Shown: positions 33,901 through 34,200, numbered from the stretch's first letter. The stretch is 64,000 nucleotides of DNA from a virus (IMGVR_UViG_3300002307_000018:32001-96000), one strand, 5' to 3'. A program made the numbers and translations. Notes: generated from the sequence alone by a model not told the origin.

Positions 33901-34170
33901 GAATCTGCCAGAAATGGCAACCATATAGAAGGAAGACGAGCAAGACGCCGGGGCAGTGCCGACCGCCTCCACCATAAGTATTTTGGTGGATGCCCTTCAG
34001 AATTTTTATGATGGGGGCGAAATAGTATCGATTGGCGTAATAGAACTATATGGGGATCGGTAGGCGATGACCGTAAATCAAGCAAAAACCAATAAATGCA
34101 AACGACGAAATGTTCGCATTAGCGGCCTAAACACCGCTTGGGGTAGCAGAACCTCGCAACAGAAAACGCA
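33901..34170 (+). ncRNA. ssrA: Circularly permuted (two-piece) tmRNA gene
   Basis: Acceptor piece ends GCCGG-GGCAGTG-CCGAC-CGCCTCC-ACCA (33974). Coding piece starts GGGGGCG (34013), giving a 7-bp acceptor stem with a G3:U70 pair. ccatatag/ctatatgg pairs the two pieces; the tag frame follows ATAAAT. Outer ends are approximate. Confidence 0.93.
34098..34130 (+). other. tmRNA tag reading frame ANDEMFALAA*
   Basis: gca aac gac gaa atg ttc gca tta gcg gcc taa; stop codon lies inside an agcgg/ccgct hairpin. Confidence 0.93.
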
Positions 34171-34171
34171 G

Positions 34172-34200
34172 AAAAGGCACCTTCGGGTGCCTTTTTCTTT
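34172..34200. terminator. Bidirectional Rho-independent terminator
   Basis: aaaaggcacc-ttcg-ggtgcctttt-tcttt, between the convergent tmRNA and 34219 genes. Confidence 0.9.

What the first reader, a model, noticed from the sequence alone, without database searches (positions are those of the whole stretch)
33901..34200. Phage-encoded circularly permuted two-piece tmRNA with tag ANDEMFALAA
Seen: the CCA-ending acceptor piece (to 33974) comes before a 38-nt intervening segment and the coding piece (GGGGGCG at 34013). The acceptor stem is perfect, with the G3:U70 alanine determinant. Inter-piece pairing (ccatatag/ctatatgg), a tag frame and a UUCG terminator are present. Known: permuted tmRNAs occur in alphaproteobacteria, some betaproteobacteria and some cyanobacteria, and a GGCRGUA-type T-loop is typical of the alphaproteobacterial/mitochondrial form; here it is GGCAGUG. 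The tag looks like betaproteobacterial ANDERFALAA-type tags. Inference: the phage supplies its own ribosome-rescue RNA, and the mixed features may mark a distinct phage lineage and point to the host.
Basis: partly seen in the sequence, partly recalled or inferred. Interest (0 to 1): 0.85.

Follow-up and report, generated by a model that had tools for sequence, protein, structure and literature searches.

The report
Mosaic two-piece tmRNA in giant phage
A freshwater giant phage carries a real, rearranged ("two-piece") copy of tmRNA, the RNA that rescues stalled ribosomes; phage two-piece tmRNAs are already known, but this one joins an alphaproteobacterial-type tRNA-like half to a betaproteobacterial-type message half, so it is a poor guide to the host.

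Summary
Window 33912-34198 (+) is a circularly permuted tmRNA gene: Rfam tmRNA_permuted scores 116.9 bits (cut-off 47) and beta_tmRNA 108.9 bits (cut-off 84). The acceptor piece ends in CCA at 33974, a 38-nt intervening segment follows, and the coding piece starts at 34013. G3:U70 is present, the tag is ANDEMFALAA (34098-34130), and a terminator closes the gene.

The record is a 264.6-kb phage contig from fresh water with 31 tRNAs. No smpB was found.

This is a known kind of gene. Phage two-piece tmRNAs are published (Buchholz 2022; Al-Shayeb 2020), and this scan has already noted them in more than 300 genomes.

Three things are less ordinary:
- The 5' tRNA-like half scores best with the alpha model (T-loop GGCAGUG, D-loop AG), while the 3' message half scores best with the beta model.
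- The exact tag occurs in nine other viral contigs, but in none of 185,579 bacterial and archaeal species genomes.
- The ten same-tag genes combine different modules, which points to recombination among phage tmRNAs.

The gene therefore does not identify the host. Expression and processing into two pieces could not be tested, because no RNA runs hold the sequence.

The parts
33912..34198 (+). The whole permuted tmRNA gene (the precursor, from the 5' strand of P2 to the terminator)
   Evidence: Rfam RF04321 matches 33912-34130 at 116.9 bits and RF01850 matches 33878-34198 at 108.9 bits. ARAGORN at -ps90 calls a permuted tmRNA here.
33921..33928 (+). 5' strand of the outer inter-piece helix (CCATATAG)
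   Evidence: It forms 8 perfect pairs with 34046-34053. The equivalent helix covaries among relatives (columns 88-93 with 313-318).
33937..33943 (+). 5' strand of the inner P2 helix (CGA-G-CAA)
   Evidence: The Rfam alignment pairs it with 34032-34037, 5 of 6 pairs. The helix covaries in alignment A1 (columns 113-119 with 290-296).
33947..33963 (+). T-arm: stem GCCGG/CCGAC (one C-A mismatch) and the alpha-type T-loop GGCAGTG (33952-33958)
   Evidence: GGCRGT(A/G) loops are the alphaproteobacterial type.
33964..33974 (+). Acceptor 3' strand CGCCTCC, discriminator A, and encoded CCA (the end of the acceptor piece)
   Evidence: It forms 7 of 7 pairs with 34013-34019, including G3:U70.
33975..34012 (+). 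Intervening segment of 38 nt, removed in processing. Its ends pair (33975-33984 with 33999-34008) and extend the acceptor helix.
   Evidence: The RNAalifold stem in columns 147-160 with 257-270 has compensatory changes among relatives. Its length varies from 26 to 117 nt among the same-tag relatives.
34013..34019 (+). Acceptor 5' strand GGGGGCG (the start of the coding piece and the presumed RNase P site)
34020..34031 (+). D-loop analogue AAATAGTATCGA, with AG where most relatives have GG
   Evidence: The AG covaries with G at the second T-loop position: 117 genes have TTC with GG, against 16 with GGC or TGC and AG.
34032..34053 (+). 3' strands of the P2 helices (TTG-GCG at 34032-34037 and CTATATGG at 34046-34053)
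34058..34087 (+). Pseudoknot-1 hairpin CGGT-AGGCGATG-ACCG (34058-34073) and the spacer after it. This 30-nt stretch is shared exactly with many other tmRNAs.
   Evidence: Hairpin. The motif occurs in at least 120 viral contigs and 31 bacterial genomes. Independently assembled contigs break at this stretch.
34098..34130 (+). Tag reading frame, from the resume codon GCA to TAA: ANDEMFALAA
   Evidence: The nucleotides are almost invariant across the 10 same-tag genes.
34121..34138 (+). Hairpin that holds the stop codon (AGCGG-CCTAAACA-CCGCT)
   Evidence: columns 382-399. The synonymous GCA/GCG change in the tag is compensated by a T/C change downstream.
34141..34154 (+). Pseudoknot pairing after the tag: GGG (34141-34143) with CCT (34152-34154), inside the conserved CCTCGYAACAGAA element
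   Evidence: columns 402-404 with 419-421. The pairs are invariant, so covariation neither supports nor refutes them.
34172..34200 (+). Intrinsic terminator: 10-bp stem, TTCG loop, T-run
   Evidence: the terminal hairpin of the beta model. One search lists the same hairpin on the minus strand, where it may also end the convergent gene 34219-35433.

Best explanation
This is a functional, phage-encoded, circularly permuted (two-piece) tmRNA gene.

Inferred mechanism:
1. A single precursor is transcribed up to the terminator at 34172-34200.
2. The precursor folds so that 33964-33970 pairs with 34013-34019, while the ends of the 38-nt intervening segment form a stem stacked on that helix.
3. Host RNase P cuts 5' of G34013, and the trailer is trimmed back to the encoded CCA at 33974.
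4. The two pieces stay together through the acceptor stem and the P2 helices.
5. Host alanyl-tRNA synthetase charges the RNA through G3:U70.
6. With host SmpB and EF-Tu the RNA enters ribosomes stalled on broken mRNAs. Translation resumes at GCA (34098) and adds (A)ANDEMFALAA, whose ALAA end should send the product to ClpXP-type proteases.
7. The benefit to the phage would be to keep ribosomes free during an infection that breaks down much mRNA.

Evolution: the gene is a mosaic drawn from a large pool of phage-borne permuted tmRNAs. It has an alphaproteobacterial-type tRNA-like domain and a betaproteobacterial-type message domain. In the permuted gene order these two domains are contiguous cassettes that one crossover can exchange.
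For: Shown here:
- Covariance-model scores are well over the cut-offs, and ARAGORN makes the same call at a relaxed threshold.
- Nine viral contigs carry the same tag, and all hit the same Rfam models.
- RNAalifold on the ten genes recovers the acceptor stem, T-arm, P2 helices, intervening-segment stem, stop-codon hairpin and pseudoknot. Of 55 pairs, 31 show compensatory changes, and G3:U70 is invariant.
- The T-loop and D-loop covary, which argues that the unusual loop is functional and not decayed: 117 genes have TTC with GG, and 16 have GGC or TGC with AG.
- The contig is a phage: a Gp23 match, virion-protein matches, distant similarity to jumbo phages, and 31 tRNAs.

Mosaic nature:
- The 5' half is best matched by alpha_tmRNA (55.4 bits) and the 3' half by beta_tmRNA (72.8 bits). 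Controls behaved as expected.
- The full-length alpha score of 95.8 bits is below every full-length match in the sampled Alphaproteobacteria (123-313 bits; one partial match scored 62.7), and the full-length beta score of 108.9 bits is below the three sampled bacterial permuted genes (169-296 bits).
- Identities of the separate modules among the ten same-tag genes disagree with one another.
- The join is coverage-consistent. Two independent contigs, of 55.5 kb at depth 25.2 and 14.9 kb at depth 24.7, meet at a shared 30-nt stretch.

From the literature: phages carry two-piece tmRNAs (PMC9004378), and huge phages carry tmRNAs (PMC7162821).
Against: - There is no expression or processing evidence. 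No RNA run holds the sequence.
- No smpB was found in the record, which CheckV rates 74% complete, so the RNA must rely on host SmpB.
- The T-stem has a C-A mismatch, and ARAGORN rejects the gene at its default threshold.
- No convincing promoter of its own was found, whereas several relatives have TATAAT- or TATAAATA-like boxes just upstream.
- Minimum-free-energy folding does not recover the P2 helices.
- The alpha-like tRNA-like domain rests mostly on about 10 signature positions in the T-loop, D-loop and acceptor stem. Stepwise convergence is not excluded, because TGC-with-AG intermediates exist.
- Metagenome contigs can be chimeric at shared stretches.
Confidence: 0.85

Rival explanations
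1. The gene is a decaying or neutral passenger. It would be a captured tmRNA gene that no longer works in trans-translation, perhaps left behind by recombination or by homing-endonuclease traffic.
For: The T-stem has a C-A mismatch and ARAGORN rejects the gene at its default threshold. Scores against both bacterial models are low compared with bacteria. No smpB was found. No clear promoter of its own was found. The upstream gene has a weak GIY-YIG match.
Against: All functional determinants are intact: G3:U70, discriminator A, encoded CCA, resume codon, in-frame stop and an ALAA end. The tag and its hairpins are kept almost unchanged in ten viral contigs, with compensatory changes. The odd T-loop comes with the matching D-loop change.
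Confidence: 0.07
2. The RNA acts against the host system and does not rescue ribosomes for general benefit. It could compete with host tmRNA for SmpB and stalled ribosomes, replacing the host tag with a phage-specific one, for example to change which adaptor or protease sees the products, or to blunt a tmRNA-linked defence.
For: The exact tag is absent from 185,579 bacterial and archaeal species genomes but is shared by ten viral contigs. Phage tags in this family are very diverse, including tags of 25-30 residues. No smpB was found, so the RNA must draw on host SmpB. A domain-only phage tmRNA (DS6A) is reported to inhibit host tmRNA (PMC4131195).
Against: The tag keeps the features known for the E. 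coli tag (from established knowledge, not tested here): AND at the start, an aromatic residue at position 7 and an ALAA end. It should therefore behave as an ordinary degradation tag. Nothing in the sequence tells competition apart from plain supplementation.
Confidence: 0.06
3. The alpha/beta mosaic is an assembly artefact. Two different phage tmRNA genes from the same sample would have been joined at the shared 30-nt pseudoknot-1 stretch.
For: Independently assembled contigs of the probable source run break exactly at 34058-34087. Other contigs in that run share this stretch and diverge on both sides of it.
Against: The two flanking contigs have nearly equal depth (25.2 and 24.7). The other paths through the stretch have depths of about 3, 9 and 51-58. 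A 30-nt repeat is shorter than a read, so it is unlikely to mislead an assembler. The P2 helix CCATATAG/CTATATGG lies wholly 5' of the break, while the tRNA-like/message boundary used for the half-scores (34040/34041) falls inside P2, so the tRNA-like module is internally consistent. Other viral contigs show the same alpha-type domain with a beta-type message.
Confidence: 0.05

Closest known systems
Two-piece tmRNAs of cultured marine phages (Methylophilales phage Melnitz, Pelagibacter phage Mosig and others; Buchholz et al. 2022, PMC9004378)
   Same: It is a phage-borne, circularly permuted ssrA gene in a T4-like myophage, with no phage smpB found. The tRNA-like domain is of alphaproteobacterial type whatever the host.
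   Different: No cultured phage record matched at the DNA level. The message half here is of beta type. No glutamine riboswitch was reported at Rfam's curated (gathering) thresholds. The source is fresh water.
Betaproteobacterial permuted tmRNA (Rfam RF01850; lineage described by Sharkady and Williams 2004, cited from PMC9004378)
   Same: The pseudoknot-1 hairpin, an ANDE-type tag, the element after the tag and the terminal hairpin all match. The 3' half scores 72.8 bits. The same 29-nt motif occurs in permuted genes of Advenella, Pelistega, Oligella and Brackiella.
   Different: The bacterial genes parsed all have TTC T-loops (none of the bacterial loci is among the non-TT loops listed). They score 169-296 bits, against 108.9 here. 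The tRNA-like half here is better explained by the alpha model.
Alphaproteobacterial permuted tmRNA (Rfam RF01849; Caulobacter two-piece tmRNA, Keiler et al. 2000, cited from PMC9004378)
   Same: It shares the acceptor stem GGGGGCG/CGCCUCC, the T-loop GGCRGU(A/G) and the D-loop AAAYAG. The 5' half scores 55.4 bits with this model.
   Different: Alpha tags mostly start ANDN, and alpha genes have a different pseudoknot 1. Full-length alpha genes score 123-313 bits, against 95.8 here.
One-piece tmRNAs of Burkholderiales with the tag ANDERFALAA (Comamonadaceae, Limnohabitans, Polynucleobacter, Rhodocyclaceae)
   Same: The tag differs at one residue (M for R). Several of these taxa are freshwater bacteria and so are plausible hosts.
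   Different: Wherever ARAGORN found the gene whole, these are standard, unpermuted genes. The phage gene is therefore not a simple copy of such a host gene.

Membership tests
Permuted (two-piece) tmRNA, Rfam RF04321 | Covariance-model score at or above the curated cut-off | tested here: met
   116.9 bits against a cut-off of 47, E 3.8e-22, full model 1-213.
Permuted (two-piece) tmRNA, Rfam RF04321 | Permuted gene order: the acceptor (3') piece ending in CCA lies upstream of the coding piece that starts with the 5' acceptor strand | tested here: met
   CCA ends at 33974 and GGGGGCG starts at 34013, with 38 nt between them.
Permuted (two-piece) tmRNA, Rfam RF04321 | A 7-bp acceptor stem with the G3:U70 alanine determinant and discriminator A | tested here: met
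   7 of 7 pairs, with G34015:U33968. G:U is invariant in ten relatives, while neighbouring pairs covary.
Permuted (two-piece) tmRNA, Rfam RF04321 | A T-arm and a D-loop analogue able to form the tRNA elbow | tested here: met
   The T-stem forms 4 of 5 pairs (one C-A mismatch). The T-loop GGCAGUG comes with D-loop AG, a combination that covaries across 139 genes.
Permuted (two-piece) tmRNA, Rfam RF04321 | A tag reading frame with an alanine resume codon, a stop codon and a hydrophobic C-terminal degron | tested here: met
   GCA..TAA at 34098-34130 reads ANDEMFALAA.
Permuted (two-piece) tmRNA, Rfam RF04321 | Helices that hold the two pieces together (P2) | tested here: met
   An 8-bp helix, 33921-33928 with 34046-34053, plus an inner helix. 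Both covary in relatives.
Permuted (two-piece) tmRNA, Rfam RF04321 | The mature RNA exists as two processed pieces and tags proteins with SmpB | not testable with these tools
   No RNA runs hold the sequence. No smpB was found in the phage record.
beta_tmRNA, Rfam RF01850 | The whole gene, both the tRNA-like and the message domain, fits the betaproteobacterial model best | tested here: inconclusive
   The full-length score of 108.9 bits is over the cut-off of 84 and is the best in the clan. But the 5' half is best matched by the alpha model, and bacterial members score 169-296 bits.
alpha_tmRNA, Rfam RF01849 | The whole gene fits the alphaproteobacterial model best | tested here: not met
   95.8 bits is over the cut-off of 50 but below the beta score. 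The 3' half is best matched by beta_tmRNA at 72.8 bits. Only the tRNA-like domain is of alpha type.

The most novel reading that the evidence does not exclude
Phage tmRNAs form their own recombining gene pool. Because the permuted order makes the tRNA-like domain and the message domain two contiguous cassettes, T4-like phages swap them at short conserved stretches (the 30-nt pseudoknot-1 stretch and the 40-nt tag region). This produces hybrids not seen among the bacteria sampled here, such as an alpha-type tRNA-like domain joined to a beta-type message with a tag found only in viral contigs. If so, a phage tmRNA says little about its host, and published host-switch inferences that rest on ssrA phylogeny would need re-examination.
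Probability: 0.45. Interest if true: 0.5.

Novelty: new variant of a known kind. Interest (0 to 1): 0.4.

Why it matters
Phage-encoded tmRNAs are a known but functionally untested part of the translation toolkit of large phages. This case adds three points:
- Standard detection (ARAGORN at its default threshold) misses such genes.
- Permuted tmRNAs of this type are very common in uncultivated phages (most sources were not examined; the probable source sample and the other runs found to hold parts of this stretch are fresh water, lakes, estuary and biofilm). One 29-nt motif alone finds at least 120 viral contigs, with very diverse tags.
- The genes appear to be mosaics of alpha-type and beta-type modules.

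The third point matters in practice. The type of a phage ssrA gene has been used to infer past hosts (PMC9004378), and a recombining pool would weaken such inferences. The linked change between T-loop and D-loop (U to G with G to A) is also a clean natural test of the tRNA-elbow contact in tmRNA.

Tried and rejected
- ARAGORN at its default threshold found nothing in the window. It works only at -ps90 or lower.
- blastn of the gene against 50,697 cultured phage records gave no match.
- An exact 25-nt search of viral contigs gave no match.
- A search for SmpB in the phage record gave no match.
- The Terminase_6C domain was not found. The Gp23 match covers only the N-terminal part of the profile, in a small ORF, so the phage assignment rests on several weak-to-moderate lines of evidence plus the IMG/VR classification.
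- Host inference from the tag failed. The exact tag is in no bacterial species genome, and bacteria with the nearest tags have one-piece genes.
- My first identity comparison of modules against the alpha and beta sets was biased, because those sets had been fetched with motifs taken from the window. I replaced it with half-by-half Rfam scoring and with an alpha sample not selected on the T-loop, of which only the best-scoring loci were parsed.
- Minimum-free-energy folding of the two pieces and of the precursor recovers the acceptor stem but not P2. Duplex z-scores for P2 are only modest, with a median of -1.3. The comparative fold is the evidence I rely on.
- Neighbouring genes are not shared with other viral loci that carry a tmRNA, so there is no conserved operon.
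- The sigma-70 promoter scan found no more sites than shuffled sequence gives.
- No RNA sequencing run holds the sequence, so expression and processing stay untested.

Full report
**1. What is there**

- The acceptor piece carries a T-arm: stem GCCGG at 33947-33951 paired with CCGAC at 33959-33963, and T-loop GGCAGTG at 33952-33958.
- The acceptor 3' strand CGCCTCC lies at 33964-33970, followed by the discriminator A and an encoded CCA that ends at 33974.
- After 38 nt (33975-34012) comes GGGGGCG at 34013-34019. It pairs with the 3' strand at all seven positions, including G3:U70.
- CCATATAG (33921-33928) and CTATATGG (34046-34053) form a perfect 8-bp helix between the pieces.
- The tag frame GCA..TAA at 34098-34130 reads ANDEMFALAA.
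- A 10-bp hairpin with a TTCG loop and a T-run (34172-34200) ends the gene.

The one flaw is a C-A mismatch in the T-stem.

**2. Is it more than chance?**

Rfam 15 gives tmRNA_permuted (RF04321) 116.9 bits against a cut-off of 47 (E 3.8e-22). It gives beta_tmRNA (RF01850) 108.9 bits against a cut-off of 84 (E 3.4e-32). ARAGORN finds nothing at its default threshold. At -ps90 it calls a permuted tmRNA with the same domains and the same tag.

**3. Context**

- The window is bases 32001-96000 of a 264,637-bp IMG/VR virus record, classed as linear and rated 74% complete by CheckV.
- The record has 31 tRNA genes in one region outside the window.
- It has a match to the T4 major capsid family Gp23 and matches to PHROG virion proteins.
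- A virion protein is about 25% identical to proteins of jumbo phages such as PA5oct and SCTP-2.
- The only run that holds the whole stretch is a freshwater metagenome.
- No SmpB gene was found.
- The upstream ORF (33220-33900) has only a weak GIY-YIG match. The downstream ORF (34219-35433, minus strand) has YadA-head-like repeats.
- These neighbours are not shared with other viral loci that carry a tmRNA.

**4. Relatives and structure**

A back-translated pattern for ANDEMFALAA plus the stop codon matched none of the 185,579 representative bacterial and archaeal species genomes. It matched nine IMG/VR contigs, and all nine hit the same Rfam families.

In the alignment of the ten genes (A1), the tag and the sequence after it are almost invariant, while the tRNA-like domain differs.

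RNAalifold on A1 predicts 55 pairs, 31 of them with compensatory changes. It recovers:
- the outer and inner P2 helices;
- the T-arm;
- the acceptor stem, with an invariant G:U at position 3;
- a stem formed by the two ends of the intervening segment, stacked on the acceptor stem (in the window, 33975-34008);
- a hairpin within the tag;
- a hairpin that holds the stop codon, in which a synonymous GCA/GCG change is compensated downstream;
- a pseudoknot pairing after the tag.

The RNA structure thus explains why the tag region is conserved at the nucleotide level.

**5. How common is this?**

ARAGORN called 101 of the 118 viral loci parsed; all 101 calls were permuted genes, with very diverse tags, some of 25-30 residues.

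The motif also occurs in 31 bacterial genomes, mostly Advenella, Pelistega, Oligella and Brackiella. ARAGORN called a permuted gene in 29 of them; 27 carry the tag ANDESYALAA.

Only 3 of 151 sampled genomes of the order (Burkholderiales, from the record titles) carry a beta-type permuted gene.

Bacteria with ANDExFALAA tags (Comamonadaceae, Rhodocyclaceae, Limnohabitans, Polynucleobacter) all have standard one-piece genes wherever ARAGORN found the gene whole.

The literature already reports two-piece tmRNAs in phages. Among 18,146 phage genomes, 402 had a tmRNA, and 53 of the 133 distinct tmRNA forms were two-piece, mostly from aquatic phages (PMC9004378). tmRNAs in huge phages are also reported (PMC7162821). 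This scan has 353 earlier notes on the theme. The kind is therefore known.

**6. The mixed features**

I tested this.
- A pattern scan for that loop next to TCCACCA returned almost only alphaproteobacterial records.
- In a sample not selected on the T-loop, RF01849 matched 98 of 101 genomes of the class (taken as Alphaproteobacteria from the seed record). That tally includes one unpublished genome, G195, from which no sequence was used.
- All 28 genes parsed, from the 30 best-scoring loci plus the seed, had GGCRGT(A/G) loops and a (C/T)AG D-loop, mostly (C/T)AGG.

The window's tRNA-like domain matches this type: acceptor GGGGGCG/CGCCUCC, T-loop GGCAGUG and D-loop AAAUAG.

Rfam scoring of each half separately gives a test that does not depend on my motif-selected sets.
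- Window 33870-34040 is best matched by alpha_tmRNA at 55.4 bits.
- Window 34041-34210 is best matched by beta_tmRNA at 72.8 bits.
- As controls, the 5' half of a same-tag relative with a TTC loop (L010) goes to beta at 94.2 bits. The 5' half of another phage gene with a GGCAGTA loop (L201) goes to alpha at 49.8 bits.

Over its full length the window scores 108.9 bits with beta, 95.8 with alpha and 13.9 with cyano. That is below the three bacterial beta-type genes found (169-296 bits) and every full-length alpha gene sampled (123-313 bits).

**7. Is the odd T-loop functional?**

Among 139 cleanly parsed permuted genes:
- 117 combine a TTC T-loop with GG in the D-loop;
- 8 have GGC with AG, the window among them;
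- 8 have TGC with AG;
- there are few exceptions.

This is the pattern expected if the tRNA-elbow contact G18:U55 has been replaced by A18:G55. It argues that the loop is a working variant and not decay. In my sets, GGC or TGC loops in a gene with a beta-type message occur only in viral contigs.

**8. Mosaic evolution**

Among the ten same-tag genes, the identity matrices for the tRNA-like domain, the pseudoknot-1 region and the region after the tag disagree.
- L005 and L004 are 100% identical after the tag, but only 69% identical in pseudoknot 1 and 67% in the tRNA-like domain.
- L002 shares its tRNA-like domain with L003 (90%) and its pseudoknot 1 with L005 (92%).

Multi-nucleotide modules in all combinations point to recombination and not to repeated mutation. 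In the permuted gene order the whole tRNA-like domain lies 5' of the whole message domain, so one crossover can exchange them.

**9. Assembly check**

Independently assembled contigs of the probable source run break at 34058-34087. This 30-nt stretch is shared with other tmRNA genes in the same sample. The two flanking contigs (55.5 kb and 14.9 kb) have depths of 25.2 and 24.7, while the other paths through the stretch have depths of about 3, 9 and 51-58. The join is therefore coverage-consistent, and chimerism is unlikely though not excluded. The same data show several tmRNA genes in one sample that share exact short stretches, which are natural substrates for recombination.

**10. Mechanism and limits**

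The steps from precursor to tagging follow established tmRNA biology: RNase P cleavage, 3' trimming, charging by AlaRS through G3:U70, delivery by SmpB and EF-Tu, resumption at GCA, and a C-terminal ALAA degron. They are inferred here, not shown. No RNA data exist for this sequence, no promoter of its own was identified, and the host is unknown. The ANDE-type tag resembles beta- and gammaproteobacterial tags, while the tRNA-like domain is of alpha type, so the gene does not name a host.

**11. Verdict**

This is a genuine phage-encoded two-piece tmRNA, which is a known kind. The gene is a hybrid alpha/beta variant with a tag found only in viral contigs, and it belongs to what looks like a recombining phage gene pool. 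Interest is moderate.

Noticed in passing
window 33975-34012; alignment A1, columns 147-160 with 257-270: The two ends of the intervening segment pair with each other and extend the acceptor stem into one long helix (about 13 further pairs in the window). The pairs covary among relatives even though segment length ranges from 26 to 117 nt. This could be a processing signal in the precursor.
   Followed up: partly
loci L181-L298 (IMG/VR contigs): Phage permuted tmRNAs that share the window's pseudoknot-1 motif carry very diverse tags. Several groups have tags of 25-30 residues, such as ANADTFEFGAMSFTGNTVSGTSRFALAA. These were not examined further.
   Followed up: no
L004, L006, L007 and L010, just upstream of the 5' strand of P2 (alignment A1, columns about 60-85): Relatives have TATAAT-like or T4-late-like TATAAATA boxes 10-15 nt before the tmRNA. 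The window lacks such a box and may be co-transcribed with ORF 33220-33900.
   Followed up: no
window 33220-33900 (+): The ORF that ends at the start of the tmRNA gene has a weak GIY-YIG nuclease match (Pfam LEM-3_GIY-YIG, E 4.8e-4). It could be a homing endonuclease next to a mobile RNA gene.
   Followed up: no
window 37303-39735 (+): An AAA/MoxR-like ATPase gene is followed by a DUF2201 putative metallopeptidase with a VWA-like domain (Pfam E 8e-36). This is a MoxR-VWA type pair in a phage.
   Followed up: no
window 34219-35433 (-): A G+C-richer gene (the 34001-36000 bin is 47.7% G+C) with YadA-head-like repeats converges on the tmRNA terminator. Contigs from other lakes match parts of it with many differences and rearrangements. 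It could be a variable adhesin or fibre gene.
   Followed up: no
genome G000:C1:6477-6653 (-), locus L011: The only Gp23 (T4 major capsid) match covers profile positions 7-61 in a 119-aa ORF and is not a full capsid gene.
   Followed up: no
L153 (Massilia eurypsychrophila): This bacterial genome carries a permuted tmRNA with the phage-type pseudoknot-1 motif and an unusual tag, ANDAEFKVAAYA. It could be a prophage-borne second copy.
   Followed up: no
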